This document shows positions 7,802 to 22,722 of a stretch of DNA of 23,476 nucleotides, piece after piece (the first letter of the stretch is position 1; each line of letters opens with the position of its first letter). A program made the position numbers and the translations under genes. The stretch lies in UHGV virus genome UHGV-0118082; one strand, written 5' to 3'. The DNA comes from a virus. The notes below the pieces were generated by a model. It did no database searches and had not been told where the DNA came from. It saw only the letters and a program-made list of their open reading frames with translations.

Positions 7802-7808
7802 GATTTAA

Positions 7809-8525
<717 letters not shown>

Positions 8526-8556
8526 TTGTTTTATTTTTCACGTAATAGGATGATTT

Positions 8557-8898: not shown

Positions 8899-8937
8899 AG
8901 AGCGCCTGCCGAACTCCCTATCCACCTTAAGCGGTAT

Positions 8938-9316
8938 ATGACAAACCGAGGCAGAGTTCCTCATACGCACTTTTCTATGCTTAATGAACTGACGTTTAAC
9001 TTGGTTGCGCCACTTGAACAGGCCGGATATACGCTGCCAGAAAAAATGGTCCCTGATATTTCAGAGGGTAGGGTTTTCTCGCAATGGCTCCGTGACAACC
9101 GGGGGGTTGAGCCGAAGACATTCCCAACATATAACCATGAGTACCCAGATGGCCGGACATTCCCGGTACGTCTATACCCAAACGAATATTGCAGATTTCA
9201 AACAATACTTCAACGAAGTGTGGCTGCCTCAGTACGCTCCTAAATATTTTGCTGAACGAGACCAAAGGGCATTGACGTTGATTGAGAAAATCATGCTACC
9301 TGACCTTGATTCCTAA
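8938..9316 (+). pseudogene. Hypothetical gene split by a +1 frame change (two protein-like ORF halves in different frames)
   Basis: Frame of 8938 reads protein-like to ...RTFPVRLYPNEY then degenerates. Frame of 9005 is junk-like at first but protein-like from ...IADFKQYFNEVWLPQYAPKYFAERDQRALTLIEKIMLPDLDS; switch point near 9175-9195. Confidence 0.45.
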
Positions 9317-9324
9317 ATGTTATT

Positions 9325-9350
9325 CCCGGCCACAGAGCCGGGTTTTCTTT
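9325..9350 (+). terminator. Intrinsic terminator ending the cI-operon transcript (lambda timm equivalent)
   Basis: CCCGG-ccacagag-CCGGG hairpin followed by TTTTCTTT; surrounding sequence matches the lambda region between rexB and OL as recalled. Confidence 0.7.
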
Positions 9351-9502
9351 GCCTCACGATCCCCCTCACCCAAGAACACATAACCAATTGTATCTATTTG
9401 AAAATAAATAGATACAACTCACTAAACATAGCAGTTCAGATCTCTCACCTACCAAACAATGCACCCCTGCAAAAAATAAATTCATATAAAAAACATACAG
9501 AT

Positions 9503-9565
9503 AACCATCTGCGGTGATGAATTATCTCTAGCGGTGTTGACATAAATACCACTGGCGGTGATACT
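9503..9565 (+). promoter_or_regulatory. Left operator OL3-OL2-OL1 and PL promoter
   Basis: OL3 9503-9519, OL2 9523-9539, OL1 9547-9563 (TACCACTGGCGGTGATA); PL -35 TTGACA at 9537-9542 and -10 GATACT at 9560-9565; matches the canonical PL sequence except a few bases. Confidence 0.85.
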
Positions 9566-9633
9566 AAACACATCAGCAGGACGCACTACTCACCAGGGCG
9601 GTGAATATACAACGATTCAAATATGAATCTACG

Positions 9634-9648
9634 GCGCTGACAAAGCGC
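9634..9648 (+). promoter_or_regulatory. nutL boxB hairpin (P22 type)
   Basis: GCGCTGACAAAGCGC: 5-bp stem with GACAA pentaloop, the P22 boxB sequence as recalled; lies between PL and the N-like gene. Confidence 0.6.
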
Positions 9649-9776
9649 AATAACCAAAGTGAACTTTGGGGTGAATGCAGAAGCTAACCTTCTCGGCGGA
9701 GGCGCTTTGCAATGATTACGCTACCGGAGTTAGTCGCCCGGCTGTATTCACCGCCAAAGTTCACCAGGAGGTCTAT

Positions 9777-10160
9777 ATGACACGCAGAACTCAGTTCAAA
9801 GGCAATTCACGTTCTCGTCGTCGTGAGCGTTTAAAGGCAAAGGCATTAGCTAACGGCGTACTGGCCCGCGAAGAAGCAATAAGTTCAGAAGTATTACACC
9901 GCCCTACTCTAAGCAGAGCGCAGATTCAGGCTAAAGGTACTCACGAAACGCCTGAGCGCATAGAAGACGCTAAGCCAATTAAGTTCATGGCACAGGACGT
10001 GATCTGGCAACAGAAAGAATACAGACGCAATCTGGAGAGAGCGGCCATTGTGTACGCGAATGAGTTTGGACATAAGCAACCAGAAACTGGTGTATGTCTT
10101 CCAAATGTAGCTCTTTACGCAGCAGGATACCGGAAATCAAAACAACTGACGGCGAGATGA
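9777..10160 (+). CDS. N-like transcription antiterminator (arginine-rich motif; P22 gp24/phage 21 N type)
   Basis: ATG at 9777 with AGGAGG Shine-Dalgarno; N-terminus MTRRTQFKGNSRSRRRERLKAKA is an arginine-rich RNA-binding motif; C-terminus LPNVALYAAGYRKSKQLTAR resembles P22 gp24. The track start at 9675 would include nutL and is rejected. Confidence 0.7.
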   Translation: MTRRTQFKGNSRSRRRERLKAKALANGVLAREEAISSEVLHRPTLSRAQIQAKGTHETPERIEDAKPIKFMAQDVIWQQKEYRRNLERAAIVYANEFGHKQPETGVCLPNVALYAAGYRKSKQLTAR

Positions 10161-10220
10161 CTTGTGTTGGTCGCCAGAAAATGAAATTAGGCAGCAAACC
10201 ACTTATTTGAGAGCTGATAC

Positions 10221-10463
10221 ATGAGAGTAAAAACTATGGGCGCAAGCCCATTAAGCGGTCGTATTTTTCAAGGAACATTAAACACTGAAAAAGGAATGTG
10301 GGTAGGAAAGAGAGAAGATGTCACCGATCAGGCAGTTAGGGCAGTAGCCGAACACATGATGATAAAAGACCAGAAATATGCATACGAAACGAAGGATGGC
10401 AAATGGCTGATAATAAGTCATCAACTGGTTGATAAATTACCAGAAGAGTTTGTTGATGGTTAA
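10221..10463 (+). CDS. Hypothetical early-left protein
   Basis: 80-aa ORF downstream of N on the same strand; no recognisable motif. Confidence 0.45.
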   Translation: MRVKTMGASPLSGRIFQGTLNTEKGMWVGKREDVTDQAVRAVAEHMMIKDQKYAYETKDGKWLIISHQLVDKLPEEFVDG

Positions 10464-10591
10464 ATTTGCTTTGGAATAAGCAACAGAATAAACACTGCAC
10501 TGTGTATTCATTCCAACGAGTGAATACACGGAGCAATGTCGCTCGTAACTAAACAGGAGCCGACTTGTTCTGATTATTGGAAATCTTCTTT

Positions 10592-10619
10592 GCCCTCCAA
10601 TGTGAGGGCAATTTTTTTT
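10592..10619 (+). terminator. Intrinsic terminator in early-left operon (tL1-like)
   Basis: GCCCTC-caatgt-GAGGGC hairpin followed by a T8 run. Confidence 0.65.
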
Positions 10620-10632
10620 GACGGAGTAAACG

Positions 10633-10881
10633 ATGATAAAAACTGATTATCCTGCAGAACTTAAACAAAAAGTAATAACAGCAATTAAATGCTCTTTTAT
10701 CTCATGTCGTACAGATGAAGAACGACATGTCGTTGAGTGTGCAATTGTCGAGTTTCTCACAGCGATGGAATTTACCGCAGCAGAATCAATAGACGTATTA
10801 AAGCAATCAGACGGAAATGATATTGAAACAGATGATGTTATTGACCGGCTAATAAAATCATTCGAAGAAGAAATAGAGTAG
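10633..10881 (+). CDS. Hypothetical early-left protein (acidic)
   Basis: 82-aa ORF with GGAG-type Shine-Dalgarno; no recognisable motif. Confidence 0.5.
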   Translation: MIKTDYPAELKQKVITAIKCSFISCRTDEERHVVECAIVEFLTAMEFTAAESIDVLKQSDGNDIETDDVIDRLIKSFEEEIE

Positions 10882-10964
10882 CCGCCTGAGCGCGGCTTTA
10901 CCGCATACCAATAACGCTTCACTTGAGGCGTTTTCGTTATGCAATCAAATATAAGGAGTTACCC

Positions 10965-11099
10965 ATGATGCACTTTCAGCTCGCGGGTAGCGGCGTCATG
11001 TCCGCTTTCTACCCGCACGAATCTGAATTATCACGCCGAGTTAAACAATTAATCAGAGCAGCAAAGAAACAACTGGAGGCGTTATGCGCAATGAAATAG
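10965..11099 (+). CDS. Small hypothetical protein (44 aa)
   Basis: AAGGAG Shine-Dalgarno 7 nt upstream of ATG; below track cutoff; overlaps start of next small ORF. Confidence 0.3.
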   Translation: MMHFQLAGSGVMSAFYPHESELSRRVKQLIRAAKKQLEALCAMK

Positions 11100-11236
11100 C
11101 CATCAATCACCAGATGCTTCGTGCAGCACAGAACAAAGCAGTAATAGCCAGATTTATTGGTGATTCAAAAATGTGGCTTGAAGCAAATAAAGCGATGAAA
11201 TCAGCTATCAACCTTCCGTGGTATCGCAGGAAATGA
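11084..11236 (+). CDS. Small hypothetical protein (50 aa)
   Basis: ATG at 11084; chained start/stop overlaps with flanking small ORFs, typical of phage early operons. Confidence 0.3.
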   Translation: MRNEIAINHQMLRAAQNKAVIARFIGDSKMWLEANKAMKSAINLPWYRRK

Positions 11237-11343
11237 GTTTTACAGATAACTGGTCAGACGAAGAATTTATTCGTCAGATGAAAGAAATGCTCAATCAGCA
11301 CAAAGAACAGGAGAAAGATGATGATTCTGACTCTGAAAGATGA
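11233..11343 (+). CDS. Small hypothetical acidic protein (36 aa)
   Basis: ATGA overlap with preceding ORF; very short, weak evidence. Confidence 0.25.
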   Translation: MSFTDNWSDEEFIRQMKEMLNQHKEQEKDDDSDSER

Positions 11344-11629
11344 GCGTGAAATATCGCAAATAATCGCAAGTTTTACTGATGAAGATTACGAACGAATCAA
11401 CAGTGAAGTTGATCGCCTCTGCAAACGTTGCGACCCAATAAGCGAAATGCTTCGCTCATATAAACCAGATGAACACACTAAGGACGCTATCGACTGGCTG
11501 GAAGATTATGACTGTAACTATCAGGAAAAAGCCGCTGAATGGTTCTGGGATGCAATAACCGAAAGAGTTAAGGCTGAATATGCCTTCGCAATATTCAAAC
11601 GCAGACACATTTTTGGAGAAGCAGCATGA
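11318..11629 (+). CDS. Hypothetical early-left protein
   Basis: 103-aa ORF, AGGAG Shine-Dalgarno upstream; ATGA overlap with the recombinase gene downstream. Confidence 0.5.
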   Translation: MMILTLKDEREISQIIASFTDEDYERINSEVDRLCKRCDPISEMLRSYKPDEHTKDAIDWLEDYDCNYQEKAAEWFWDAITERVKAEYAFAIFKRRHIFGEAA

Positions 11630-12537
11630 GCAATATCGTTGAATTCGTTAAACAGCAAGAGCAGTTATTCTGCGGAGCATTGACTGAACAGACGGTGACA
11701 TGGGCTAAGGAAAGCCAGTTTGCAATTCAGTATTTCCAGAAAAATGATTACCTGGCTAAAACAGCACTGGCAAATCCAACCAGCGCACAGAACGCCATCA
11801 TCAATGTTGCGGCGATCGGTATCACCTTAAACCCGGCTAGCAAACTGGCTTATCTGGTTCCGCGCGACGGCATGGTGTGCCTTGATATCAGTTATATGGG
11901 ATTGCTCCATATTGCAATGGAGTCTGGTGTTATCTCATGGGGTCAGGCAAAACTTGTTCATGCTAACGATACCTATGAGTCAAACGGGCTTGATAAAGCA
12001 CCAACCCATAAATACAACGCCTTCGGTGATCGTGGTGATATTGTTGGCGTTTACTGCACAGTTAAGACGCCAGCAGGTGATTATCTAACGGAAGAGATGA
12101 GTCTGGCTGAAATTGAGGCTGTAAGGAAAACAAGCAAGGCAGCATTCAGCGATAAAGGACCATGGGTAAATCACTGGAATGAGATGGCGCGAAAGACGGT
12201 CGTAAAGCGTGCAAGCAAGTATTGGCCTAAGGCATCACGTCTTGATAGTGCTATTCACGTACTAAACGAAGAAGAAGGTGTGTGGACTGAACCAGTTATG
12301 CCGCACAAATCAGAGGAAGATATCCGCGAAGATGAACGGAAACGACAGCAGGAAATTATGGAAAAAGCACAACTTCTTTGTGATGAAATGGCTCAGGCTG
12401 AAAACATGGATGATTTGAAGCGATATTTTGCAGAAGCATATCGCCTGACATCTGGAATGAAATTGCAGCAGAACGTACAAGCCATTTACATAGAATGCAA
12501 AGCGAAACTGGAGGTTGCCAGTGAGCAAACTGTATGA
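11626..12537 (+). CDS. RecT/Bet-family single-strand annealing recombinase
   Basis: 303 aa; GPWVNHWNEMARKTVVKRASKYWP parallels Rac RecT GPWVTHWEEMAKKTAIRRLFKYLP as recalled; early-left position of lambdoid recombination genes. Confidence 0.85.
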   Translation: MSNIVEFVKQQEQLFCGALTEQTVTWAKESQFAIQYFQKNDYLAKTALANPTSAQNAIINVAAIGITLNPASKLAYLVPRDGMVCLDISYMGLLHIAMESGVISWGQAKLVHANDTYESNGLDKAPTHKYNAFGDRGDIVGVYCTVKTPAGDYLTEEMSLAEIEAVRKTSKAAFSDKGPWVNHWNEMARKTVVKRASKYWPKASRLDSAIHVLNEEEGVWTEPVMPHKSEEDIREDERKRQQEIMEKAQLLCDEMAQAENMDDLKRYFAEAYRLTSGMKLQQNVQAIYIECKAKLEVASEQTV

Positions 12538-13003
12538 AATTGCCAATGAATACGCAAAATTGATGGATTCAGATTTAGAACCAGAGATGATTGCTGACAC
12601 AATAGAAGGCATGGAAGGAGAATTTACCGATAAAATAGAGCAACTTCTTTCCGTCATTAAAAATGAATCTGGTTATGCTGAACGCCTCAAGGAAGAGGCA
12701 AAGTCACTGAATGAGCGAGCCGCAGTAATTCAAAATAAGATTGACAGCATCAAATCATATATAGCGTCATCGCTTGAAATGGTTGGCAAGAAAAATATTC
12801 GAGCAGGTATTCACCAGGTAACAATCCGCAAACCGTCAGAAATTGTAGAAATAATCGACTCAAGCGCCCTTCCTCCTGAATACGTTGAGTTTGAAACGAC
12901 AATTAAAGCCGACAAACTGGCAATCAAACACCAACTAAAAGCAGGAATAAATATCCCCGGTGCTCAACTCAAAGTTGGGAAACCTTCACTTCTTATCAAA
13001 TAA
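12521..13003 (+). CDS. Gp157-like protein commonly paired with RecT-type recombinases (function unknown)
   Basis: GTG at 12521 preceded by GGAGG (track start 12515 is TTG); ~160 aa, charged helical N-terminal half; immediately follows recT with overlap. Confidence 0.5.
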   Translation: MSKLYEIANEYAKLMDSDLEPEMIADTIEGMEGEFTDKIEQLLSVIKNESGYAERLKEEAKSLNERAAVIQNKIDSIKSYIASSLEMVGKKNIRAGIHQVTIRKPSEIVEIIDSSALPPEYVEFETTIKADKLAIKHQLKAGINIPGAQLKVGKPSLLIK

Positions 13004-13014
13004 CGGTATCGCCT

Positions 13015-13329
13015 ATGAAAAAGACTCCATGGGAGAAATGGGAAGTCGATTTCTTGCGCGAAGTAGCGGCGACAATGCCAGTTGAAGTTATTGCTGAAAA
13101 ACTGGAAAGGACTGAAAAATCAGTTATGGCGAAAGCAACAAGGATTGGCGCTGACATTGTTAGCCGACTTCGTGGAAGACGCTGGACAAGAGCTGAAGTA
13201 TCACTTTTCGGTAAGTTCTCCGCAGAAGAAATAGCAATTGCAACCTGCCGCTCAATTTATTCAGTAAGAGCTATGCGATACAAGCTAAAAAAACTTGATG
13301 AAGAAAGAGCAGGCATACGAATAAATTAA
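13015..13329 (+). CDS. Hypothetical protein with two tandem W-x-E/R-containing helical repeats (possible DNA-binding)
   Basis: 104 aa; internal repeat [13 protein letters not shown]... and [13 protein letters not shown]... Confidence 0.45.
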
Positions 13330-13345
13330 CAAAGAGGAATTTACC

Positions 13346-13510
13346 ATGAGAGGACTTGCATACAATCCCGGCATTCTTCCGGCAGAAATGATTATTCGCC
13401 AACGCGTAAAGCCAATGCCATCGAGAGAGGAATTGCTTAAGAGAAATTCTTTTCCATCAGTGAATCAAAACAAATATCTGAATGCGATGTGGCGGAGTGG
13501 AAAAAAATGA
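13346..13510 (+). CDS. Small hypothetical protein (54 aa)
   Basis: AGAGGA Shine-Dalgarno, ATG at 13346; stop overlaps the ATG at 13507 (ATGA). Confidence 0.3.
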
Positions 13511-14091
13511 AACAAATGACACTAATTGAGATGGATGGTTTTCTGAAAGGCAAATGCATCCCAAGTGATTTAAATGTTAACGAAACAAACGCTGAATATC
13601 TTGTCCGTAAGTTCGGTGAACTTGAATCAAAACTAGAAACGGCGTTGCGGGAGTGTCGTTCTGCTGGAATCACGATTGATAACCTTGAGGCCAAGTGCGC
13701 GGCGCTGGCTGTGGAGAATGCGTGGCTGAATAAATTTATCGTACAGAGTTGCTACGTGTTTGACGGCGAGCAGGGTGAACTATCTGATGCGTATATCTGC
13801 GCAATAGACGGAAGGATGCCGCAAACCCAAGTCACCGACGCTTTTTTGGATGAAGTGAAGACTGAAGCACGCAAGGAGGGAGCTTACTTTGTGGCGAACA
13901 GAATGCTGGCTGCCTGGGAAGCTGGTTTTATTGATGATACTGCGAAGAACGCCGCGGATATTGCCAGGATGATTATTACCTCTACTGAGTTTATGGCTAA
14001 TGCGCCGGAAGGCGATTTTGACCGCTCATTCTCTGATGGCGTTCTCGAAGATATCGCCGCCCAGCTTCGCAAAGGATGTGATCAAAAATGA
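13507..14091 (+). CDS. Hypothetical early-left protein
   Basis: Track ORF begins at GTG 13489; first in-frame ATG at 13507 overlaps upstream stop; 194 aa; no recognisable motif. Confidence 0.5.
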
Positions 14092-14705
14092 CAATCACAA
14101 AACAACGAGTAGAAGAAATCATATCGCGCATTGAAATGTATGGGCATGGTGCAGGGTATACCGTTGACGAGGTTTATGACCTTGCTGTACTGGCGTTGAA
14201 TTTATCAAATATCGCAAACCTTAAGCGATACGAGCTTGATATGGATGGTTGCGACTCGTTCGGTCAGGATTGTGGCGCTGACATGACTGAAGATCCTGAT
14301 GGCGATTATGTCCTGTTTGATGACGTGGTTAAGTTGTTTGAGTTTGATACAACCACCAAGAAGTTAGAAACCCCAGCCACCGACGCTTTCCTTGCTGAAG
14401 TACTGGCGCAGGTGGTGAAATCGCCATCCAATGCCGTTCAGTCAGTAATTGCAGAGCGTCAACGCCATCAATCAGCTGAGGGATGGACGCCTGAGCATGA
14501 TGACCAGTACAGCAAATCGCAGTTACTGTGGGCATCCTCATGCTACGTACTGAATGCCATCCATCCATTTAACCGCATTCCATTTGACTGGCCGTGGACA
14601 CCAGAATGGTGGAAGCGGACAAATCCACGCCGTGACCTGGTGAAAGCTGGCGCACTTATTCTGGCCGAAATTGAACGCATAGACCGCCAGGAGTCCGCCC
14701 AATGA
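14088..14705 (+). CDS. Hypothetical early-left protein
   Basis: 205 aa, ATGA-coupled to flanking genes. Confidence 0.5.
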   Translation: MTITKQRVEEIISRIEMYGHGAGYTVDEVYDLAVLALNLSNIANLKRYELDMDGCDSFGQDCGADMTEDPDGDYVLFDDVVKLFEFDTTTKKLETPATDAFLAEVLAQVVKSPSNAVQSVIAERQRHQSAEGWTPEHDDQYSKSQLLWASSCYVLNAIHPFNRIPFDWPWTPEWWKRTNPRRDLVKAGALILAEIERIDRQESAQ

Positions 14706-15208
14706 GCAACATCAACAAACAGGCGCTGCGTGAAGCGGCGGAGAAAGCAACGTGTGGTGTGTGGTCGCTCGAATATGGAGAGGAGAGATTTGATGCTGGT
14801 GATGCGCTAATTCATCGTGAAGTTGTTGGATATCTTCCCATTTGCAGAATTGAAGGAGCGCATCCAGAAAGCGGTTTCGATGAAGATTTCCAAATGGAAC
14901 AGCAGGCCAATGCTGAATTCATCACCGCAGCCAATCCGGCTACCGTCTTGGCGCTGCTGGATGAGCTGGAGAAGATGCAGGCGCAATCGTCCAAATGGTG
15001 CGAAGCCTTCCATAAAGCCGTTTCCGTTGGCGCTCGGTATGAGGAGCGGATTGCTGAACTGGAAGCACGGGAAATATCGCTCCCAGAACGTAGCAGTATG
15101 CTTCATCGAACAGATTTTCACGAGGATTACCAAACGGTAATGGCATACAAAGTTTCTGAAGTCATCGCTGCAATCCGCGCCGCAGGCATTCGCATCAAAG
15201 GAGAGTGA
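14702..15208 (+). CDS. Hypothetical early-left protein (loosely reminiscent of Ead/Ea22-like prophage proteins)
   Basis: 168 aa, ATGA-coupled; last gene before an intrinsic terminator. Confidence 0.5.
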   Translation: MSNINKQALREAAEKATCGVWSLEYGEERFDAGDALIHREVVGYLPICRIEGAHPESGFDEDFQMEQQANAEFITAANPATVLALLDELEKMQAQSSKWCEAFHKAVSVGARYEERIAELEAREISLPERSSMLHRTDFHEDYQTVMAYKVSEVIAAIRAAGIRIKGE

Positions 15209-15288
15209 TATGAGCACTGGATGATATGGGCGCAGATAGCGCATGCAGACGTAACCAATATTCGAATTGAAGAACTGAAAGAACACCA

Positions 15289-15313
15289 AGCCGCCTGATG
15301 GCGGTTTTTTATT
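15289..15313 (+). terminator. Intrinsic terminator after the early-left gene block
   Basis: CCGCC-tgat-GGCGG hairpin followed by TTTTTTATT. Confidence 0.7.
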
Positions 15314-15355
15314 GCCTGATTTGCAGGTTCGATTCCCTATTCGGAGATAGCACTC

Positions 15356-15556
15356 ATGCAACACGAACTACAACCTGATTCACTGGTTGATTTGAAATTC
15401 ATCATGGCTGATACTGGCTTTGGTAAAACCTTCATCTATGACCGGATTAAGTCCGGCGACCTGCCAAAAGCCAAAGTTATCCACGGGCGAGCAAGATGGT
15501 TATATCGTGACCATTGTGAATTCAAAAATAAGCTCTTAAGCCGCGCCAATGGGTAA
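15356..15556 (+). CDS. AlpA/Xis-like small HTH protein (excisionase or regulator) upstream of integrase
   Basis: 66 aa; LKFIMADTGFGKTFIYDRIKSGDLPKAKVIHGRARWLYRDHCEF fits the AlpA/excisionase HTH pattern; GGAGA Shine-Dalgarno. Confidence 0.7.
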   Translation: MQHELQPDSLVDLKFIMADTGFGKTFIYDRIKSGDLPKAKVIHGRARWLYRDHCEFKNKLLSRANG

Positions 15557-15828
15557 AATAGCGGGTAAAATATTTTTCACATCTAAAAAACACCATTCCA
15601 ATCAATCCCCTGCCGCCTCAAGTAGATGTCTGCAGGGGACAATACCTTTTCATTTCATCACGTTTCAACACACTTCACCTCCCCCCTTAAAACCAGCAAA
15701 ATCAGGGCCTGTCGCCTTGAACATGGTTTCAGTTGATTTCATGACATTACATGATTCTGATGGTATCGTTGATGGTACTCACGGTTCGATAAACCGATAC
15801 CATCAACTGACAACAAAGATTACTCTCC
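15557..15828 (+). promoter_or_regulatory. Integrase leader with direct and inverted repeats; candidate Int arm-type sites/att region
   Basis: GGGTAAAATA direct repeat (15551-15560, 15563-15572); inverted repeat GATGGTATCG / CGATACCATC (15759-15768, 15795-15804) plus an extra GATGGTAC copy; hairpin CCCCTGC...GCAGGGG at ~15607-15638. The track ORF 15549-15842 is considered non-coding. Confidence 0.3.
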
Positions 15829-17100
15829 ATGGCACTAAATGAGCTATCACCCAAGAAAGTTGAAAACGCTAAACCCAAAGAAACAGACTACAAACTGACG
15901 GATGGGGGAAGCCTGTATCTTTTAGTTAAAAAGAACGGGACCAAGGCATGGCGAATGAACTACAGATTTAACGGCAAACAAGCTACGCTGGCTTTGGGCG
16001 TTTTCCCAGACGTTTCGCTGGCACTTGCCCGTAAGCGTAGAGATGAAGCAAGGCAACTTTTAGCCGACGGTGTTGATCCCAGAGTATCTAAAAAAGCAGC
16101 GCCAACAGAACCCGCCTCTGCTACATTCCAGACAATCGCTTTAGAGTGGCATAAAGGCTCTATAGGCCATCCCTCATGGAAAGAGATTACCCGCACTAAA
16201 ATTTTAAGAGAAATGGAAAATCATATTTTCCCATATATCGGAAATAAACCCATCGACTCATTAAAAACAAGTGACCTGTTGCCATTATTGGTGAGGATGA
16301 GTGATCAGGGAATTGGAGCAACAACAGGAAGAGTGAAAACTACTCTTGCAAGCGTTTTCCGGTACGCTATTCAGCGTGGAATTGTTGAATACAATCCTAC
16401 CCATGATCTAAGAGGAGCAATTTCCAGCCCCAAAATAAAGCATCGCCCTGCACTTCCGTTAGAACGATTACCCGAATTAATATCAAAAATTGATAGCTAT
16501 ACAGGGAGGCCGTTAACTAAGCTGGCAGTATTATTTTCTCTTCATACTTTTGTTCGCTCCAGTGAACTGAGACACGCAAGATGGGAGGAAATTAATTTTG
16601 AAAATGCAATGTGGACTATTCCTGCTCAAAGAAAAAGAATTGATGGGGTAAAATATTCAGAGCGTGGGGCAAAAATGGGCAGTATTCATTATGTTCCATT
16701 ATCTAATGAAGCTATTGATGTTCTCGAAGCTATTAAAAAAATAAGTGGTGAGTATGAACTTATTTTCCCCGGAGATAGTAACCCTTACAAACCAATGAGT
16801 GAGAACACAGTTAATAAGTCATTAAGAATTATGGGGTACGACACGCAGGTGGACATTTGCCTTCATGGATTTAGGGCAATGGCGTGCTCAGCCCTGACAG
16901 AATCAGGCTTATGGTCGAGGGATGCAGTAGAACGGCAAATGAGCCATCAAGAACGAAATGAAGTGCGAGCCGCTTATGTACACTTAGCTCAGCATATGCA
17001 TGAACGTCGTCGGATGATGCAATGGTGGTCTAATTATATTGAAGCTAACACTGATAGATATATTGCCCCCTATAAAATGAAAAAACTACGCGTTGTTTGA
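15829..17100 (+). CDS. int: Tyrosine integrase, P4-type (DUF4102-like N-terminal arm-binding domain)
   Basis: 423 aa; N-terminal LYLLVKKNGTKAWRMNYRFNGK and C-terminal PMSENTVNKSLRIMGY...HGFRAMACS...ERQMSHQERNEVRAAYVH closely parallel P4 Int as recalled. Confidence 0.95.
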   Translation: MALNELSPKKVENAKPKETDYKLTDGGSLYLLVKKNGTKAWRMNYRFNGKQATLALGVFPDVSLALARKRRDEARQLLADGVDPRVSKKAAPTEPASATFQTIALEWHKGSIGHPSWKEITRTKILREMENHIFPYIGNKPIDSLKTSDLLPLLVRMSDQGIGATTGRVKTTLASVFRYAIQRGIVEYNPTHDLRGAISSPKIKHRPALPLERLPELISKIDSYTGRPLTKLAVLFSLHTFVRSSELRHARWEEINFENAMWTIPAQRKRIDGVKYSERGAKMGSIHYVPLSNEAIDVLEAIKKISGEYELIFPGDSNPYKPMSENTVNKSLRIMGYDTQVDICLHGFRAMACSALTESGLWSRDAVERQMSHQERNEVRAAYVHLAQHMHERRRMMQWWSNYIEANTDRYIAPYKMKKLRVV

Positions 17101-17174: not shown

Positions 17175-18149
17175 ATGAGCGATAATACACGATTAAATGT
17201 TTGGGAAAGGAATAGTATTCCTGTAATGGAATTTTGCTCCCTAAAACGAGCTGCTGAACTACTTAATTGCCAAATTGATGACCTTATCCATTTTGCTCAA
17301 ATTGGAATTATCGAATTTTGCTTAGAATTAAATGGTTTCGAAGCTGCGCTAATGATGATGCGTAAAGGTGGAGATTTTAAAGATTGGGAAAACATGTACC
17401 CACCCAGAGTATTAAACTATAGTAATAAATCTGCATTAAGCCATTTCATACCAAAAGCAAAATTCGATATTGATTATACAGAAGATAAGCCATTTTCACC
17501 TCCAAAACAAATATACCATTTAGAAAACAAACCAAATATAAAAAGCCCATTAATCTTACTTTCTGGATTGTGGTCTATATGTGTCATCAGCCCAACATCT
17601 TCATTATACAAAGAACTAAAGGTATATGGTAAAGCAAGGCTATTAGCACATGATATTTCTTTTAAAGAAGCTAATATGCCATTCACTAATGCTGCATTTG
17701 GCAGTGATGAGTGGGTAATATTAGCAATGTCCCCTTTCGAAGGCTTATCATCAATAGAGGGATTAGTATCTCCATCTAATAAAAATATTATTGGAAATAT
17801 AACACTGGATGATATCTATTTAACAAGATACCAAATAGAAAAATTAGATAACGGTGTTGGCAAAGAGCTACCCAGCTATGTGAATGGTGGTGTATCCAGC
17901 ATCGAAAGCATCCGAAGAGTGCATGGTAATGTTGAAGCATCAGCAACAAAAAGAGAGGCAGTGTACAAAGCAGCTATTTATTGGTTACTAAATGACCCAG
18001 CATCTTGCAATGGAAAACGAGGAAAACTGACTATTGACGCGTGGGCAGATAAAATCGTGGCAGAAAGAAACAATCCAAAAACAAAGGTTGAACTTGGAAA
18101 AGATAAGATAAAAGAATGTCTTAGCTCATCTAAAGCAGGAAGATTTTAA
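17175..18149 (+). CDS. Hypothetical cargo protein, AT-rich, with possible N-terminal HTH; function unknown
   Basis: ATG at 17175 with AGGTGA Shine-Dalgarno (track start 17097 is TTG overlapping int stop); 324 aa; N-terminus FCSLKRAAELLNCQIDDLIHFAQIGII looks helix-turn-helix-like; no catalytic motif recognised; clearly more AT-rich than int and primase flanks. Confidence 0.6.
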   Translation: MSDNTRLNVWERNSIPVMEFCSLKRAAELLNCQIDDLIHFAQIGIIEFCLELNGFEAALMMMRKGGDFKDWENMYPPRVLNYSNKSALSHFIPKAKFDIDYTEDKPFSPPKQIYHLENKPNIKSPLILLSGLWSICVISPTSSLYKELKVYGKARLLAHDISFKEANMPFTNAAFGSDEWVILAMSPFEGLSSIEGLVSPSNKNIIGNITLDDIYLTRYQIEKLDNGVGKELPSYVNGGVSSIESIRRVHGNVEASATKREAVYKAAIYWLLNDPASCNGKRGKLTIDAWADKIVAERNNPKTKVELGKDKIKECLSSSKAGRF

Positions 18150-18256: not shown

Positions 18257-18466
18257 ATGACATTAAAAACTTACCCTATCACCGGGCATGCCCGCCCACG
18301 GGCTACTGCTGACTTTTTGCAAGTAAGCACAGTTACTCTCTGGCGCTGGGAAAAAAACAATCCTGAATTTCCAAAATCCACACGTATTTCAAAACGGGTA
18401 ACTGTTTACGATGCACAAGAAATTAGACAGTGGGTAAAAGCTCAATCCTCAGATGCTGATAAATAA
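18257..18466 (+). CDS. alpA: AlpA-family transcriptional regulator (P4 Vis-like)
   Basis: 69 aa; FLQVSTVTLWRWEKNNPEFPKSTRISKRVTVYDAQEIRQWV fits the AlpA HTH pattern. Confidence 0.8.
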   Translation: MTLKTYPITGHARPRATADFLQVSTVTLWRWEKNNPEFPKSTRISKRVTVYDAQEIRQWVKAQSSDADK

Positions 18467-18828: not shown

Positions 18829-19005
18829 ATGGCTAAACAGAAGTGTACCTGGTTATTTGCGGCGATCAACCGCAGTCAACGCAATGCCCGTCCTGTGATG
18901 TTAAGGATCACCGCAGATAACGAGCGCTCAGCGCGGCGCAGACTTGCCCCGGACTATGTGCTGAGCTTTGCCGGTCGCATTCCCTGTGGAGGTGAACATG
19001 CGTAA
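18829..19005 (+). CDS. Small protein, possibly Icd-like (host cell division inhibitor family) - tentative
   Basis: ATG at 18829 with GAGGT Shine-Dalgarno (track start 18775 is GTG); 58 aa; TWLFAAINRSQ...LRITADNERSARRRLAPDYVLSFAGRIP resembles the Icd-like pattern as I recall it. Confidence 0.45.
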   Translation: MAKQKCTWLFAAINRSQRNARPVMLRITADNERSARRRLAPDYVLSFAGRIPCGGEHA

Positions 19006-19357
19006 TTATCCGCAACCCGGCGAACGCTGGCAGCATGAGCGTGGCTGGACTGTCACGATTATCAGATTAACTGAAGCCTCGCCCTCCGTGGCGCTGGTTA
19101 ACCCTGAATTCAGCTGTGAAGTGCTGATTCGTCATGACAGCGACAATAAGCTTTCTTCCTGCCCTCTGGCATGGTTTGAGCAGCGGTATACGCGCCTGTT
19201 TAATGCCCCGCTCTTTAAACCTTCGCTAGCTCCCGCGGGGGGTAGCGGCTCTGGCTCGCTGACGCTGCATCCGTCGGTGGTATTTACCCGCTGGCGGGAG
19301 CGCAGCATACGGCGTTCTGCTGAACCTGACGACAGTCACTATTCAAAGTTTCTCTGA
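18998..19357 (+). CDS. Hypothetical satellite early protein
   Basis: ATG at 18998 with GGAGG Shine-Dalgarno 5 nt upstream (track start 18968 is TTG); 119 aa; overlaps upstream stop. Confidence 0.5.
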   Translation: MRNYPQPGERWQHERGWTVTIIRLTEASPSVALVNPEFSCEVLIRHDSDNKLSSCPLAWFEQRYTRLFNAPLFKPSLAPAGGSGSGSLTLHPSVVFTRWRERSIRRSAEPDDSHYSKFL

Positions 19358-19388
19358 CAAAACACCGCTGAAAACGGAGTAATCCACG

Positions 19389-19673
19389 ATGAATATTTCA
19401 AACGGGCACAACGGTGCTCAGGGCCACGCTTTGCCTGAAAAACACAATAGCGGTGCTTTTGCGTATGGGTTGTCAGAGGACGGTTTCGGAAAGCTGGACC
19501 GCGCCAGAAAGGCCTGCGACATGTTGCAGCTTCTCTTTTCTGAATACCCCTCGCAGGGCGGAACGCTGGATGCAGGATGTGCGCCAGGCATCGCCGCGCT
19601 GATGGAGTACCTGCGGGCAGATTTGACGGATATTGCGCACAGTTGCGAACTGATTGAAGGAGGCACCCAATGA
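19389..19673 (+). CDS. Hypothetical satellite early protein
   Basis: 94 aa; ATGA overlap with next gene; GC-rich codon usage consistent with neighbours. Confidence 0.5.
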   Translation: MNISNGHNGAQGHALPEKHNSGAFAYGLSEDGFGKLDRARKACDMLQLLFSEYPSQGGTLDAGCAPGIAALMEYLRADLTDIAHSCELIEGGTQ

Positions 19674-20053
19674 ACCAGCCGCAGGTTTCTATTTTTCCGG
19701 CAGAAATGACCACTGCGCTTTACCGGCGGGCTATTGCATCGGCCTGGCGCCAGAAAGCGCTGACCGAAACCGGCTGCGATCACTATGGTCCGCACAGCCT
19801 GACGGTTGAACGTATTGAAATGGCCATTGCCCTGCATATCGAGTGCGCACTGATTAACGAATATGGCGAAGCACAGGGAGCAGCGGCTGCACTGGCGCTG
19901 CTGACTGACATGCTGGAGCCATCATTGCTGACCGCGCCACCGGTACTGACTGTGCGCGGCTGTGAAGTGATGGCGGAGCTGTACCGCACACTTCCGGCGG
20001 CATTTGATGACTTCTGCAGCTCGGGTGTATCGCTGTATCAGGGGGAAATATGA
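19670..20053 (+). CDS. Hypothetical satellite early protein
   Basis: 127 aa; GAAGGAGG Shine-Dalgarno; ATGA overlap with the primase gene. Confidence 0.55.
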   Translation: MNQPQVSIFPAEMTTALYRRAIASAWRQKALTETGCDHYGPHSLTVERIEMAIALHIECALINEYGEAQGAAAALALLTDMLEPSLLTAPPVLTVRGCEVMAELYRTLPAAFDDFCSSGVSLYQGEI

Positions 20054-22722
20054 CAACACAGACGGTTACGCAGATTTCAGCCGCAGCGCGGGGAAAATGG
20101 CCCGTCATTCTGCAGATGCTGCGTATTGATGTACCTGAAAACGGCAGGCACGGTCCCTGCCCGAAATGTGGGGGCAAGGATCGCTTCCGCCTCGATGACC
20201 TCGACGGGCGCGGGACGTGGATTTGCAGCCAGTGCGGCAATGGTGATGGTCTGGATCTGGTTAAGCTCATAACCGGTTACGGCATCAGAAAGGCAGCGCA
20301 GGAGGTGGCGCAGGTGCTTAATGTGCCGGATGTGCAGGAACTGCCCGTTAAGCCCGCCAGGCAAAAAGCCCCTAAACGCGATATGAGCCTTACCGTGGCG
20401 GCCCTGATGAAAGAGAGTCACACGGGAGAAAGCCCCTATCTGACCGGAAAAGGGTTCGCCGGATACCCGGCCTCCCTGACCGGGAGCGTGCAGCATATCA
20501 GTGGTAAGGATTTCCCTGCCGGTTCCCTGCTGTTACCGCTCACGACAAACGCCGGAGCCGTGACCGGTGCACAGCTTATCGCCCCGACGGGTGAAAAAAG
20601 CATACTGCCCGGCAGCACGATGAAAGGCGCGTTTGTGGCGCTCAGCCCGTTACCGTCTGAACCGCCGGTACAGGTGGTGATTACCGAAGGTTACGCCACG
20701 GCGCTGACGGTAAGCCAGCTCACCGCCGGATGCGTAGTGGCGGCCATATCGGCGGGCAACCTGCCCAACGTCGCACAGGCGCTGCGGGCACGCTGGCCTG
20801 AGGTAAAAATTATCATCGCCGGTGATAACGATTTTCAGGACGGGGGCGAGAATCCCGGCAGATCCTTTGCTGAACGGGCGGCAAAATCAGTCGGTGGCTG
20901 GGTGACGCTGCCACCGGGAGAAATTAAAGCTGACTGGAATGACTTCCACCGTGAGCACGGTATTACACGTGCCCGTGAAGCCTTTCGTAACGGTCTTGTA
21001 CTGTGCGGAGAAGGCCGCACGCAGTTGCCGCACGGGTTCCGTCTTACCCAGGAATATCTCTGGTATGAAAAACAGGTACAGCGCAACGGTGAGACGGAGA
21101 TCCAGAACGTCAAAATATGCAACCCGTTGCGCGTGACGGCAATCACCTGCGATGCTGATGGCGGTAATTTCGGGCGACTGCTGGAGTGGGAAGATACATG
21201 GGGAGAGCGCCGCCGCTGGGCGATGCCGATGGAAATGCTCAGTGGTAGCGGTGAGGAACTACGCCGGGTACTGCTGGTTAACGGGCTGTCCTATATCAGC
21301 ACCACCGGTGAGGCCCGCGCCCGCCTGATGGAATATATCTCGCTGTGTAAACCGGAACGCCGCGTGACCTGCGTCAGCCGCACTGGCTGGCATGGTCAGG
21401 TTTACGTCCTGCAGGATGAGGTCAGCGGTGAAGGTGCAGAGGGTGTCATTCTCCAGACCACTTCCGTGCAGGGGCGCGATTTCCGTGTGTCAGGTACAAC
21501 GGAGGAATGGCGGGAGCACGTTTCCCGTTACTGCACCGGTAACTCCCGCGTGGCGTTTGCCGTCAGTCTGGCCTTTGCTGCACCCCTGTTACGGCTGGTT
21601 GGGATGGACGGCGGCGGCTACCACCTCAAGGGGGAATCGACTGACGGTAAGACCACCACCATGAAAGCGGCAACCTCCGTTTGTGGCGGGCCTGATTACT
21701 GGCAGACGTGGCGGGCAACCGGCAACGCGCTGGAGGGATGCGCCAGCCGCCGCAACGATGCCGCCATGATGCTTGATGAGATCCGGGAGGTGGACGGACG
21801 CGAGGCGGGTAATATCGCCTACATGCTGGCAAACGGTCAGGGCAAGGGCCGTGCCGGTACGGACGGTGAGCTGCGCACCCGTAAGCAGTGGCGGCTGCTG
21901 TTCTTTTCAACCGGCGAGCTGTCACTGACCGAACATGCGGCAAAAGCCGGTGAGCGTACCTTTGCCGGGATGGAAGTCAGGATGATCCAGATCCCCAGCG
22001 ATTCCGGGAAATTTGGCGTATTTGAGGAGCTGCACGGCTTCGACAGCGGCAAGGCTCTGGCGGAACATCTGGAGTGGGCCACGTCCAGCTACTACGGTTC
22101 GCCGTTCAGGGAGTGGCTGAAAGCCCTGACCGCTGACCTTAACGGGCTGACGGCACAGGCAAAGTCACTGATGAAGGAATATACAGCCGCCCTGACCCCG
22201 AAAGATGCGGGTAATCAGGTAGGCCGGGCTGTGAACCGCTTTGCACTGGTGGCGATGGCGGGCGAGCTGGCAACCCGGCTGGGTATTACCGGCTGGCCTG
22301 AGGGTGAAGCGCTGCGGGCAACCCGCGTCTGCCTGAACGCATGGCTGAAAGATCGCGGGCACACCGCCAATCAGGAAGATATTGCCGCACTGGAGCAGGT
22401 ACGCAGCTTCTTTACCGCGAATCAGTACAGCCGCTTTGCTGACTGGCACGACGAGCGTAACCGCCCCGGCAATATGGTGGGCTGGCGCAGGGTGGAGAAA
22501 GGCAGTACCGCGCAGGGCACGGAGGCCGTCACCACGTTCTACGTCATGCCGTCCGGCTGGAAAGAAATCTGCCGGGGATTTGACCCGCGCAAGGTGGCGC
22601 GTCTGTGCGCGGATCGTGGATACCTGCTGCCCTCCACCGATGGCAAGCTGCAGACAACCATTCGCCCGCCAGAGATGAATCCCCGCAGACTCTATGTCTT
22701 CAACAGCGAGGTGCCGGGTTAA
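20050..22722 (+). CDS. Primase-helicase (P4 alpha-like: zinc ribbon + TOPRIM primase + P-loop NTPase)
   Basis: 890 aa; CPKCGG...CSQCG zinc ribbon; TOPRIM-like acidic motifs (VITEGYATA, IIAGDND); Walker A GESTDGKTT and Walker B-like MMLDEIRE. Confidence 0.9.
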   Translation: MTTQTVTQISAAARGKWPVILQMLRIDVPENGRHGPCPKCGGKDRFRLDDLDGRGTWICSQCGNGDGLDLVKLITGYGIRKAAQEVAQVLNVPDVQELPVKPARQKAPKRDMSLTVAALMKESHTGESPYLTGKGFAGYPASLTGSVQHISGKDFPAGSLLLPLTTNAGAVTGAQLIAPTGEKSILPGSTMKGAFVALSPLPSEPPVQVVITEGYATALTVSQLTAGCVVAAISAGNLPNVAQALRARWPEVKIIIAGDNDFQDGGENPGRSFAERAAKSVGGWVTLPPGEIKADWNDFHREHGITRAREAFRNGLVLCGEGRTQLPHGFRLTQEYLWYEKQVQRNGETEIQNVKICNPLRVTAITCDADGGNFGRLLEWEDTWGERRRWAMPMEMLSGSGEELRRVLLVNGLSYISTTGEARARLMEYISLCKPERRVTCVSRTGWHGQVYVLQDEVSGEGAEGVILQTTSVQGRDFRVSGTTEEWREHVSRYCTGNSRVAFAVSLAFAAPLLRLVGMDGGGYHLKGESTDGKTTTMKAATSVCGGPDYWQTWRATGNALEGCASRRNDAAMMLDEIREVDGREAGNIAYMLANGQGKGRAGTDGELRTRKQWRLLFFSTGELSLTEHAAKAGERTFAGMEVRMIQIPSDSGKFGVFEELHGFDSGKALAEHLEWATSSYYGSPFREWLKALTADLNGLTAQAKSLMKEYTAALTPKDAGNQVGRAVNRFALVAMAGELATRLGITGWPEGEALRATRVCLNAWLKDRGHTANQEDIAALEQVRSFFTANQYSRFADWHDERNRPGNMVGWRRVEKGSTAQGTEAVTTFYVMPSGWKEICRGFDPRKVARLCADRGYLLPSTDGKLQTTIRPPEMNPRRLYVFNSEVPG

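What the first reader, a model, noticed from the sequence alone, without database searches (positions are those of the whole stretch)
15209..15828. Ambiguous ownership of the integration module and candidate att/arm region upstream of int
A strong terminator (15289-15313) ends the lambdoid early-left operon, followed by an AlpA/Xis-like gene, then a 270-bp leader rich in direct (GGGTAAAATA) and inverted (GATGGTATCG/CGATACCATC) repeats, then the P4-type integrase. A second AlpA-family gene lies 1.1 kb downstream of int. The module could be the lambdoid prophage's xis-int or the left end of the satellite; the repeats look like Int arm-type sites. There is a tRNA T-loop-like GGTTCGATTCC at 15326-15336 but no tRNA.
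Basis: partly seen in the sequence, partly recalled or inferred. Interest (0 to 1): 0.45.

Follow-up and report, generated by a model that had tools for sequence, protein, structure and literature searches.

The report
Prophage–satellite seam at argW tRNA site
This stretch is the seam where a crippled P22-like prophage, ending in its excision gene torI and right attachment site, meets a separate P4-like satellite that starts with its own attachment site and integrase; both sit one after the other in the same arginine tRNA gene, which is an ordinary and already described arrangement.

Summary
It is not one integration module. Comparative mapping puts a boundary at 15630-15641 (CTGCAGGGGACA, the 3' end of tRNA-Arg argW). 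To the left is the right end of an HK620/Sf6/KplE1-type prophage: a terminator, torI (66/66 identical to TorI, PDB 1Z4H) and attR with two GGGTAAAATA sites, read here as IntS arm-type sites. The phage's own integrase IntS lies at the far end of the prophage, ending at about window position 6. To the right is the attL of a P4-like satellite: three conserved TGATGGTA candidate arm sites over a predicted int promoter, then the P4-type integrase, a cargo gene and the satellite's AlpA. Among 5426 E. coli genomes, 3 carry the whole junction, at least 7 listed carry only the satellite half next to argW, and the remaining ~1400 carry a partial match (all 20 others listed: the torI half only). The elements therefore move independently. 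The T-loop-like sequence is a 16-nt copy of the argW T arm. It is conserved just upstream of xis in distant phages and its function is unknown. Main finding: ordinary and already known.

The parts
1..15641 (+). Body and right end of a defective P22-like (HK620/Sf6/KplE1-type) prophage. Its attL, argW and intS lie just left of the window; the intS stop codon is at about position 6.
   Evidence: Window 1-1500 is 100% identical to E. coli CM2010-0578/1, where yfdC-argW-intS lie immediately upstream. Pfam finds GtrA, GT2, DUF6056, tailspike, an O-gene fragment, CII, an S24 repressor, N, RecT and Ea22. Phage homology ends at 15641.
15288..15313 (+). Intrinsic terminator after the last early-left (ea) gene and upstream of torI.
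   Evidence: Pattern scan gives an 8-bp stem, 4-nt loop and T run. It is conserved in HK620, Sf6, Kapi1 and CUS-3.
15321..15337 (+). 'U element': a 16-nt exact copy of the argW T arm (TTGCAGGTTCGATTCC), with conserved core AGGTTCGATTCCC. It sits 5 nt upstream of the torI Shine-Dalgarno sequence. It is not a tRNA and its function is unknown.
   Evidence: Exact-match scan against argW. Present in every HK620-type locus fetched. Conserved upstream of xis genes only 36-52% identical to TorI.
15356..15556 (+). torI, the excisionase (recombination directionality factor) of the prophage.
   Evidence: 66/66 identical to PDB 1Z4H 'Tor inhibition protein'. PHROG 66 excisionase. RefSeq annotates it as torI in identical contexts.
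15534..15629 (+). P arm of the prophage attR, carrying two sites read here as IntS arm-type sites: GGGTAAAATA at 15551-15560 and 15563-15572.
   Evidence: The published KplE1 attR primer CTCTTAAGCCGCGCCAATGG equals 15534-15553 (PMC3509656). The HK620 record annotates this repeat as attP. GGRTAAAA occurs 6 times in 6 kb of HK620, all in the two att arms, against 0.5 expected. The mapped KplE1 P' arm-type sites share TAAA (PMC2951348); the binding sites of the attR P arm itself were not read.
15630..15641 (+). Shared att core CTGCAGGGGACA: the 3' end of argW up to the discriminator base, and the first 12 nt of the 16-nt KplE1 core. This is the boundary between the two elements.
   Evidence: Phage homology runs to 15641 and satellite homology starts at 15630. 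PMC2951348 gives the core as CTGCAGGGGACACCAT.
15642..15828 (+). attL arm of the satellite and int leader. It carries candidate Int arm-type sites TGATGGTA at 15758-15765 and 15770-15777 (+) and 15798-15805 (-), and a promoter-like site at 15741-15769.
   Evidence: 100% identical to the argW-adjacent leader in Evo1. The motif is enriched (4 found against 0.67 expected). Two more copies with the same 12-bp spacing lie next to the satellite's attR in four genomes. The three sites are invariant in ~80%-identical satellites whose leader is otherwise diverged. Promoter scan.
15829..17100 (+). P4-type tyrosine integrase of the satellite.
   Evidence: Pfam Arm-DNA-bind_3, Phage_int_M and Phage_integrase. 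It lies directly next to tRNA-Arg in the satellite-only genomes listed.
17175..18149 (+). Low-GC cargo gene (324 aa, unknown function) in a variable slot between int and alpA.
   Evidence: GC is 32-39% against 53-59% in the satellite core genes. No Pfam or PADLOC hit. Variant satellites carry a different gene here.
18257..18466 (+). AlpA-family HTH protein of the satellite, its likely Vis-like excision and regulatory factor.
   Evidence: PF05930 at 29 bits against a cut-off of 21. It always travels with the satellite int.
18829..23476 (+). Rest of the satellite inside the window: an Icd-like gene, small ORFs, DUF5375, a Toprim/DUF927 primase (20050-22722) and the start of a Psu-like gene (23123 onward).
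   Evidence: Pfam and PHROGs and RefSeq annotation of the 100%-identical copy in Evo1.

Best explanation

The left part is the right end of a defective P22-like prophage that carries the KplE1/HK620/Sf6 recombination module. Reading left to right it holds a terminator closing the early-left operon, torI (the excisionase), and attR. attR consists of a P arm with two GGGTAAAATA sites, read here as IntS arm-type sites, and the core CTGCAGGGGACA. In this module attP lies between xis and int. After integration the phage's integrase IntS therefore ends up at the opposite end of the prophage, next to argW and just left of the window.

From the core rightwards the DNA is the attL of a P4-like satellite. 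Its arm carries three TGATGGTA candidate arm-type sites overlapping the predicted int promoter. The P4-type integrase follows, then a cargo gene and the satellite's own AlpA/Vis-like factor.

Shown here: the boundary, the independent distribution of the two halves, the identity of TorI, and the recurrence and conservation of both repeat motifs at the matching far ends.

Inferred from published KplE1 work and from what I recall of P4:
- IntS, TorI and IHF recombine the off-window attL with this attR to excise the prophage.
- The satellite Int, with AlpA, recombines 15630-15828 with its off-window attR.
- Int binding at the TGATGGTA sites autorepresses int.
- The satellite integrated first, and the phage then integrated into the argW end that the satellite had rebuilt.
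For: 1. Breakpoints. Phage genomes (HK620, Sf6, Kapi1 and others) match 14703-15641 and stop there. Satellite-only E. coli genomes match from 15630 on at about 100% identity, with tRNA-Arg directly upstream.
2. Distribution. A junction query (15450-15830) against 5426 genomes gave 3 with the whole junction. Of the other 27 listed, 7 had only 15630-15830 next to argW and 20 had only the torI half, 15450 to about 15641. The remaining ~1400 matching genomes all have partial matches and were not inspected individually.
3. TorI is 66/66 identical to PDB 1Z4H.
4. The HK620 and Sf6 records annotate torI, an attP repeat, the attP core and int in that order. In EC974 and CM2010-0578/1, argW-intS sits at the left end of the same kind of prophage. 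Window 1-1500 is identical to the latter, starting 6 nt before the intS stop.
5. Literature: KplE1 has a 16-nt core CTGCAGGGGACACCAT, intS is its first gene and torI its last, the mapped P' arm-type IntS sites contain TAAA, and the attR primer equals 15534-15553 (PMC2951348, PMC3509656). GGRTAAAA occurs only in the two att arms of HK620.
6. Satellite arm sites. TGATGGTA occurs three times in the leader. It occurs twice more, with the same 12-bp spacing, about 73 bp left of the satellite's attR core TTCGATTCCTGCAGGG-ACACCA in Evo1, EC974, CUVET17-972 and CFSAN064035. The sites are invariant where the rest of the leader has diverged.
7. Satellite gene content: int, AlpA, Icd-like, primase, Psu and Ogr/Delta.
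Against: argW, intS, the phage attL and the satellite attR all lie outside the window. They were seen only in genomes identical or nearly identical to parts of it; no complete genome in the collection holds the whole window. No protein-DNA binding or excision was tested. The role of GGGTAAAATA rests on the motif match to the mapped KplE1 P' sites and on the HK620 annotation; the published binding-site map of the attR P arm was not read. The satellite arm sites and promoter are inferred from motif recurrence and conservation alone. At this attR only 12 of the 16 KplE1 core bases match (CTGCAGGGGACA|ATAC), so the competence of this prophage to excise is unproven. The order of the two integrations is inferred from parsimony.
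Confidence: 0.92

Rival explanations
1. torI and the P4-type integrase form one xis-int pair belonging to the lambdoid prophage, and the whole stretch is one element.
For: The genes are adjacent, on the same strand, 270 bp apart, with no terminator between them. Both proteins belong to families that commonly pair up.
Against: The two halves occur apart in roughly 1400 genomes and in all the free phage genomes examined. HK620, Sf6 and Kapi1 carry a different integrase (IntS) after the same torI-attP. The arm-site motif next to torI (GGGTAAAA) matches the arm upstream of intS, not the leader of this int.
Confidence: 0.02
2. The satellite begins at the terminator, so torI, int and the second alpA are all satellite genes, with torI as its excisionase.
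For: The terminator at 15288-15313 looks like an operon or element end. P4-like elements use AlpA/Vis-type factors.
Against: In the satellite-only genomes listed the element starts at 15630, directly after argW, without torI. The terminator-torI-P arm block is part of many phage genomes. TorI is the characterised RDF of IntS (PMC2951348, PMC3509656).
Confidence: 0.02
3. Same two elements, but in the opposite order of events: the phage integrated first and the satellite later integrated into the core copy at the phage's attR.
For: The final gene order would be the same. The attR copy contains CTGCAGGGGACA.
Against: The satellite's identity block with argW starts in the T loop (TTCGATTCC...), which the phage attR lacks (it reads gtagatgtCTGCAGG). 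Satellite-only genomes with a 100%-identical element exist. Different P22-like phages sit next to the same or variant satellites, as expected if phages arrive at a site already occupied by a satellite.
Confidence: 0.1
4. The T-loop-like sequence at 15321-15336 is only a decaying scar of an old att site or tRNA fragment and has no present function.
For: It is exactly the argW segment that directly precedes the att core in the tRNA. It is missing in several related lineages, where it looks like a ~25-nt indel. The 135-bp attR used for in vitro excision does not include it (PMC3509656). No natural recombinant uses it.
Against: The motif survives intact 3-6 nt upstream of the xis Shine-Dalgarno in phages whose Xis is only 36-52% identical and whose spacer and upstream DNA are unrelated. 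It is exact in 31 of 54 distinct upstream contexts and present in two tandem copies in one phage. All copies share an extra C that the tRNA lacks. A neutral scar should not outlast the coding sequence next to it.
Confidence: 0.35

Closest known systems
KplE1 (CPS-53) / HK620 / Sf6 IntS-TorI recombination module at argW
   Same: TorI protein is identical. The terminator, torI and P arm are the same, including the GGGTAAAATA repeat. The first 12 nt of the 16-nt core are the same. xis sits at the right end and intS at the left end of the prophage, and the target is argW.
   Different: The last 4 core bases and everything to the right come from a satellite rather than from the chromosome. This prophage is a different deletion derivative: it keeps immunity, N and the early-left genes and has lost all late genes.
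Satellite phage P4 and P4-like elements (Int plus Vis/AlpA, tRNA-gene integration)
   Same: It has an Arm-DNA-bind_3 tyrosine integrase next to a tRNA gene in the same orientation. It also has an AlpA-family gene, Icd-like, Psu and Ogr/Delta genes, a primase, and variable cargo slots (family definition in PMC8628076).
   Different: The target is argW rather than leuX. The replication protein is Toprim+DUF927, not the PF03288 alpha type. No epsilon was found. In the prophage int lies next to the alpA-primase side rather than next to psu, and Psu-delta lie at the far end.
Lambda int-xis-attP module
   Same: A heterobivalent integrase with arm-type and core-type sites, a small winged-helix RDF, and read-through from the early-left operon.
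   Different: In lambda xis and int are adjacent and attP lies beyond int. Here attP lies between xis and int, so integration separates them. The int next to xis in this window belongs to a different element.
Tandem arrays of integrative elements at tRNA hot spots
   Same: Two elements share one tRNA 3' end, and each regenerates a core that the next can use. Other examples seen here: torI-attP-intS junctions in 16 records, and xis-attR apparently followed by another P4-type int in IMG/VR contigs L101, L103 and L177 (read by eye).
   Different: Nothing essential. This is one more instance.

Membership tests
KplE1/HK620-type IntS-TorI recombination module | TorI-type recombination directionality factor | tested here: met
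   66/66 identity to TorI, PDB 1Z4H.
KplE1/HK620-type IntS-TorI recombination module | Core CTGCAGGGGACACCAT shared with the 3' end of argW | tested here: met
   The first 12 nt are present at 15630-15641. The last 4 are replaced by satellite sequence, as expected for an attR formed on a satellite-occupied attB (core from PMC2951348).
KplE1/HK620-type IntS-TorI recombination module | attP between xis and int, so that intS lies at attL and torI at attR of the prophage | tested here: met
   torI-attP-int order in HK620 and Sf6. argW-intS lies at the left end in EC974 and CM2010-0578/1. The latter is 100% identical to window 1-1500, and its intS ends at window position 6. intS itself is off-window.
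KplE1/HK620-type IntS-TorI recombination module | IntS arm-type sites containing TAAA in the att arms | tested here: met
   GGGTAAAATA occurs twice at 15551-15572. The same motif fills the P' arm before intS in HK620. The TAAA motif of the mapped P' sites is from PMC2951348.
KplE1/HK620-type IntS-TorI recombination module | TorI- and IntS-dependent excision | not testable with these tools
   Needs an excision assay in the source strain.
P4-like satellite (components as defined in PMC8628076) | Tyrosine integrase (PF00589) | tested here: met
   PF00589 plus Arm-DNA-bind_3 plus Phage_int_M.
P4-like satellite (components as defined in PMC8628076) | AlpA (PF05930) | tested here: met
   18257-18466 scores 29.3 bits against a cut-off of 21.
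P4-like satellite (components as defined in PMC8628076) | Psu (PF07455) and Delta (PF04606) | tested here: met
   Both found in Evo1 (L001), immediately downstream of the stretch that is 100% identical to window 15630-23476: Psu 32 bits, Ogr_Delta 60.9 bits. The window holds only the first 118 codons of the Psu-like gene (PHROG 6165).
P4-like satellite (components as defined in PMC8628076) | Alpha primase-helicase (PF03288) | tested here: not met
   The 890-aa replication protein hits Zn_Ribbon_Prim, Toprim_3 and DUF927, not PF03288.
P4-like satellite (components as defined in PMC8628076) | Epsilon (PF10554) and Sid | tested here: inconclusive
   No PF10554 hit among the small ORFs scanned. 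Sid uses a custom profile that is not available here.
P4-like satellite (components as defined in PMC8628076) | Canonical gene order int-psu-delta-sid-alpA-epsilon-alpha | tested here: not met
   The order here is int-cargo-alpA-...-primase-psu-delta. It is best called a P4-like variant.
tRNA gene | Cloverleaf detectable by ARAGORN or Rfam | tested here: not met
   No tRNA in the window and no tRNA hit in 15000-16000 even at E<=1. Only two fragments of argW are present, of 16 nt and 12 nt.

The most novel reading that the evidence does not exclude
The T-arm copy upstream of torI (AGGTTCGATTCCC, 15324-15337) is a functional cis element of argW-targeting phages rather than a scar. It could be an anti-Shine-Dalgarno partner that limits xis translation. 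It could instead be a mimic of the attB half-site that the integrase binds, coupling xis expression to integrase occupancy. Either way it would be an uncharacterised layer of control over recombination directionality; the torI promoter region is described as 'non-characterized' in PMC2951348.
Probability: 0.3. Interest if true: 0.45.

Novelty: already known. Interest (0 to 1): 0.2.

Why it matters
The main value is for annotation. Tools or readers that pair the nearest xis with the nearest int would mis-assign this integrase and draw the prophage and satellite borders in the wrong place; the true border is 15630-15641. The junction also shows two things. An IntS-type phage can apparently integrate into an argW end already rebuilt by a satellite, where only 12 of the 16 'core' bases match. 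That suggests the strand-exchange region lies within those 12 bases. It also shows that argW accumulates tandem elements. The one possibly new item is the conserved T-arm motif upstream of xis. It is cheap to test and concerns how excisionase expression is controlled.

Tried and rejected
- tRNA/tmRNA scan of the window: nothing. Rfam at a permissive threshold gave only sub-threshold hits. STnc130 scored 24 bits against a gathering score of 55, and the alignment rests on the terminator hairpin. I dismissed it.
- A second copy of the core inside the window: none, because the partner sites are off-window.
- Exact or 1-mismatch search for the satellite's attR core in Evo1 and EC974 failed because attR has GGG where the tRNA has GGGG. 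It was found through the direct-repeat search instead.
- Is the T-arm copy used as a crossover site, as the CUS-3 GenBank 'attR core' annotation implies? Chimeric queries found no contiguous terminator-U-core junction. The 8 listed of the 16 covering places are two pieces 550-995 bp apart, i.e. torI-attP-intS junctions. They also found no argW-U-torI junction in 5426 genomes. Rejected.
- ORF 15549-15842 (97 aa): rejected as a gene, because it reads across the phage/satellite junction.
- Small ORF 15741-15842 in the int leader: rejected. In the 80%-identical satellites two single-base indels shift the frame, while the DNA motifs stay conserved.
- Defence-system search (PADLOC) on the cargo genes: no hit.
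- A profile search for distant TorI loci returned only identical copies. Divergent Xis queries were needed.
- The HK620-annotated cII site/P_I over the 5' end of the motif is not conserved in the other lineages, so it does not explain the conservation.

Full report
**Observation.**
- The terminator has its stem at 15288-15307, followed by a T run.
- The 66-aa excisionase-like ORF lies at 15356-15556.
- The direct repeat GGGTAAAATA lies at 15551 and 15563, and the inverted repeat TGATGGTATCG/CGATACCATCA at 15758-15768 and 15795-15805.
- The P4-type integrase lies at 15829-17100 and a second AlpA-family gene at 18257-18466.
- GGTTCGATTCC lies at 15326-15336. There is no tRNA and no Rfam family above threshold.

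In 500 dinucleotide shuffles of the region, a nearby 10-nt direct repeat occurred in 0.8% of shuffles and an 11-nt inverted repeat in none.

**Where the boundary is.**
- Phage side: BLAST of 14700-18500 against phage genomes gives matches to HK620, Sf6, Kapi1, phiv205-1 and others. These cover 14703-15641 and stop there.
- Satellite side: against complete E. coli genomes, a set of strains matches from 15630 onwards at about 100% identity with tRNA-Arg directly upstream. In strain Evo1 the order is yfdC, argW, then this integrase, and window 15630 corresponds to the 12th base from the end of the annotated tRNA.
- Overlap: the two homologies overlap by 12 bp, CTGCAGGGGACA (15630-15641). This is the 3' end of argW up to the discriminator base, and the first 12 bases of the published 16-nt KplE1 core CTGCAGGGGACACCAT (PMC2951348).
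- Distribution: a 381-bp query spanning the junction (15450-15830) against 5426 genomes found 3 with the whole junction. Of the other 27 listed hits, 7 had only the right half next to argW and 20 had only the torI half, ending at about 15641. The remaining ~1400 matching genomes all have partial matches and were not inspected one by one.

**The left element.**
- RDF: the ORF at 15356-15556 is TorI, 66/66 identical to PDB 1Z4H. TorI is the characterised recombination directionality factor of the KplE1 prophage and is identical in HK620 and Sf6 (PMC3509656).
- Module order: the HK620 and Sf6 records show torI, an attP repeat, the attP core, an excision promoter, more attP repeats and then intS. 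attP therefore lies between xis and int, and integration sends the two genes to opposite ends of the prophage. This is the KplE1 arrangement, with intS as first gene and torI as last (PMC2951348).
- Left end: EC974, which has the same composite junction, carries argW-intS at the far left of its prophage. Window 1-1500 is 100% identical to strain CM2010-0578/1, where yfdC-argW-intS lie immediately upstream and intS ends at window position 6. The phage's integrase is thus just off the window, about 15.6 kb from torI.
- Arm sites: the GGGTAAAATA pair is annotated as an attP repeat in HK620. The motif GGRTAAAA occurs six times in 6 kb of HK620: twice here and four times in the arm directly before intS, against 0.5 expected. 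The mapped KplE1 P' arm-type sites share TAAA. The published attR PCR primer equals 15534-15553. I did not read the published binding-site map of the attR P arm, so the assignment of this pair to IntS rests on the motif match and the HK620 annotation.

The prophage in the window is defective. A tailspike gene lacking its head-binding N-terminus (4342-6459, minus strand) abuts a fragment of replication gene O (6462-6896). All head, tail, lysis and nin genes are therefore missing, while gtrABC, cII, cI, N, recT, ea22 and torI remain.

**The right element.**
- Content: from 15630 to the end of the window the DNA is 100% identical to the argW-adjacent island of Evo1. That island holds int, a hypothetical gene, an AlpA-type regulator, an Icd-like gene, DUF5375, a Toprim/DUF927 primase, Psu (PF07455), Ogr/Delta (PF04606) and a DUF4062 gene. 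By the component list of PMC8628076 it is a P4-like variant. It has int, AlpA, Psu and Delta, but it lacks a PF03288-type alpha and has a different gene order.
- Right end: this lies outside the window. In Evo1 it reads TTTGATGGTATCCATGATGGTATC, then about 50 nt, then TTCGATTCCTGCAGGG-ACACCAGATACCC. That is the displaced original argW 3' end with its CCA and one G missing. The same attR occurs in EC974 and in two genomes with ~80%-identical variant satellites. Its identity with argW starts in the T loop.
- Candidate arm sites: TGATGGTA occurs twice in direct orientation 12 bp apart at attR. In the int leader it occurs twice in direct orientation 12 bp apart plus once inverted (15758, 15770, 15798-15805). 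The window holds 4 copies against 0.67 expected, and Evo1 holds 6 against 0.65. In the variant satellites the leader has diverged heavily, but the three sites and the block TTTCAGTTRATTTCATGACATTACA are unchanged. This is a phylogenetic footprint that fits arm-type sites of the satellite Int.
- Regulation (inferred): a promoter-like site (ATGACA, 17 nt, TATCGT; 15741-15769) overlaps the first two sites. This matches the negative autoregulation that PMC2951348 predicts for tRNA-int pairs in the same orientation. The autoregulation of P4 int by Int and Vis is from my own recollection, not from a paper read here.

**How it works.** The boundary, the independent distribution and the conservation of the motifs are shown. 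The mechanism is inferred.
- IntS, TorI and IHF would recombine the off-window attL with attR (15534-15641) to release the prophage.
- The satellite Int, with its AlpA, would recombine 15630-15828 with the off-window attR.
- The satellite probably arrived first. Satellite-only strains exist, and different P22-like phages sit beside the same or variant satellites. The phage attR also lacks the T-loop half of the satellite's identity block.
- On this reading the phage integrated into an attB that matched only the first 12 core bases. That suggests IntS strand exchange lies within CTGCAGGGGACA.

**The T-loop-like sequence.** 15321-15336 (TTGCAGGTTCGATTCC) is a 16/16 match to the argW T arm. In the tRNA it directly precedes the att core, so the torI-P arm block lies between two halves of the argW 3' end.
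- Occurrence: it is present in HK620, Sf6, Kapi1, CUS-3 and EC974. The CUS-3 record labels it 'attR core'. The HK620 record places a cII site and P_I over its 5' end.
- Not a crossover site: no genome has a terminator-motif-core contiguity or an argW-motif-torI contiguity.
- Conservation: the core AGGTTCGATTCCC is conserved 3-6 nt upstream of the xis Shine-Dalgarno in phages whose Xis is only 36-52% identical to TorI. These include Salmonella Emek and Erwinia phiEt88, and Erwinia Midgardsormr38 (Xis 88% identical) has two tandem copies. The spacer and upstream DNA in these phages are unrelated.
- Frequency: among 54 distinct upstream contexts from IMG/VR, 31 have it exactly, 8 nearly, and 15 lack it.
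- Possible role: it can pair with the SD region in minimum-free-energy folds, but there is no covariation to test this.
- Literature: no paper in the library contains the sequence, and the torI promoter is called non-characterised.

I leave its function open. An anti-SD role, a mimic of the integrase core site, or a scar all remain possible.

**Verdict.** The finding is real but ordinary. It is the attR of a KplE1/HK620-type prophage fused at the argW core to the attL of a P4-like satellite. Each element has its own integrase, RDF and arm sites. Nothing here departs from known systems. Only the conserved T-arm motif upstream of xis is uncharacterised.

Noticed in passing
window 4342-6896: The prophage is defective. 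A tailspike gene lacking its head-binding N-terminus is joined directly to a fragment of replication gene O, so all virion, lysis and nin genes are deleted. Immunity, N, the early-left genes, gtrABC and torI remain.
   Followed up: partly
window 180-4306: Between intS (off-window) and the tailspike lie a 335-aa gene with a hydrophobic N-terminus resembling a signal peptide and no family hit, then gtrA, gtrB and a DUF6056 gtrC-like gene. This is a serotype-conversion cassette with an unknown extra gene, seen in only 11 of 5426 genomes.
   Followed up: partly
window 15630-15646; L001 11940-12015: The 3' end that the satellite supplies to argW reads GGGGACA|ATACC, so it encodes no CCA. In satellite-only strains the tRNA gene is annotated as 72 nt. 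Integration of the P22-like phage restores an encoded CCA, giving a 75-nt gene in EC974 and CM2010.
   Followed up: partly
L001 24585-24606, L004 32773, L010 26392, L011 23823: The satellite attR core has GGG where argW has GGGG. The same 1-nt loss is shared by four strains carrying two satellite variants about 80% identical. This suggests one old integration followed by diversification in place, or an attP that carries GGG.
   Followed up: no
window 15730-15749 and 18246-18265: An 18/20 repeat (CAGTTGATTTCATGACATTA / CAGGTAATTTCATGACATTA) lies upstream of int and again at the start of alpA, where its ATG is the start codon. It could be a shared regulatory sequence or a duplicated alpA 5' end.
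   Followed up: no
window 17175-18149: A low-GC (32-39%) 324-aa cargo gene sits between int and alpA. Variant satellites carry an unrelated 293-aa gene in the same slot, so this is a variable hotspot. No Pfam or PADLOC hit.
   Followed up: partly
window 15606-15613 / 15632-15639: The inverted repeat TCCCCTGC ... GCAGGGGA flanks the left side of the core. The pair CCCCTGC-N18-20-GCAGGGG is kept in the HK620, Erwinia, Klebsiella and Salmonella relatives. It may be core-type integrase sites.
   Followed up: no
L006 1993-2008, L007 1-16 (CUS-3, CP000711.1): The CUS-3 GenBank record defines the prophage ends by the 16-nt T-arm repeat. That places the right end upstream of where torI lies in the related phages. 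The experimentally defined KplE1 core lies about 300 bp further right, so that annotation is probably misplaced.
   Followed up: partly
H131-H138; L101, L103, L177: Sixteen E. coli records hold the terminator-torI block and the core-P' arm close together, as in a torI-attP-intS junction (tandem P22-like prophages or circular forms); 8 were listed. In several IMG/VR contigs xis-attR appears to be followed at once by another P4-type integrase (N-terminus read by eye). Tandem occupancy of this tRNA-Arg site looks common.
   Followed up: no
window 15549-15842: The 97-aa ORF listed here reads across the phage/satellite junction. Its first 28 codons correspond to HK620 hkaB and the rest is satellite leader. 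It is an artefact of the fusion.
   Followed up: yes
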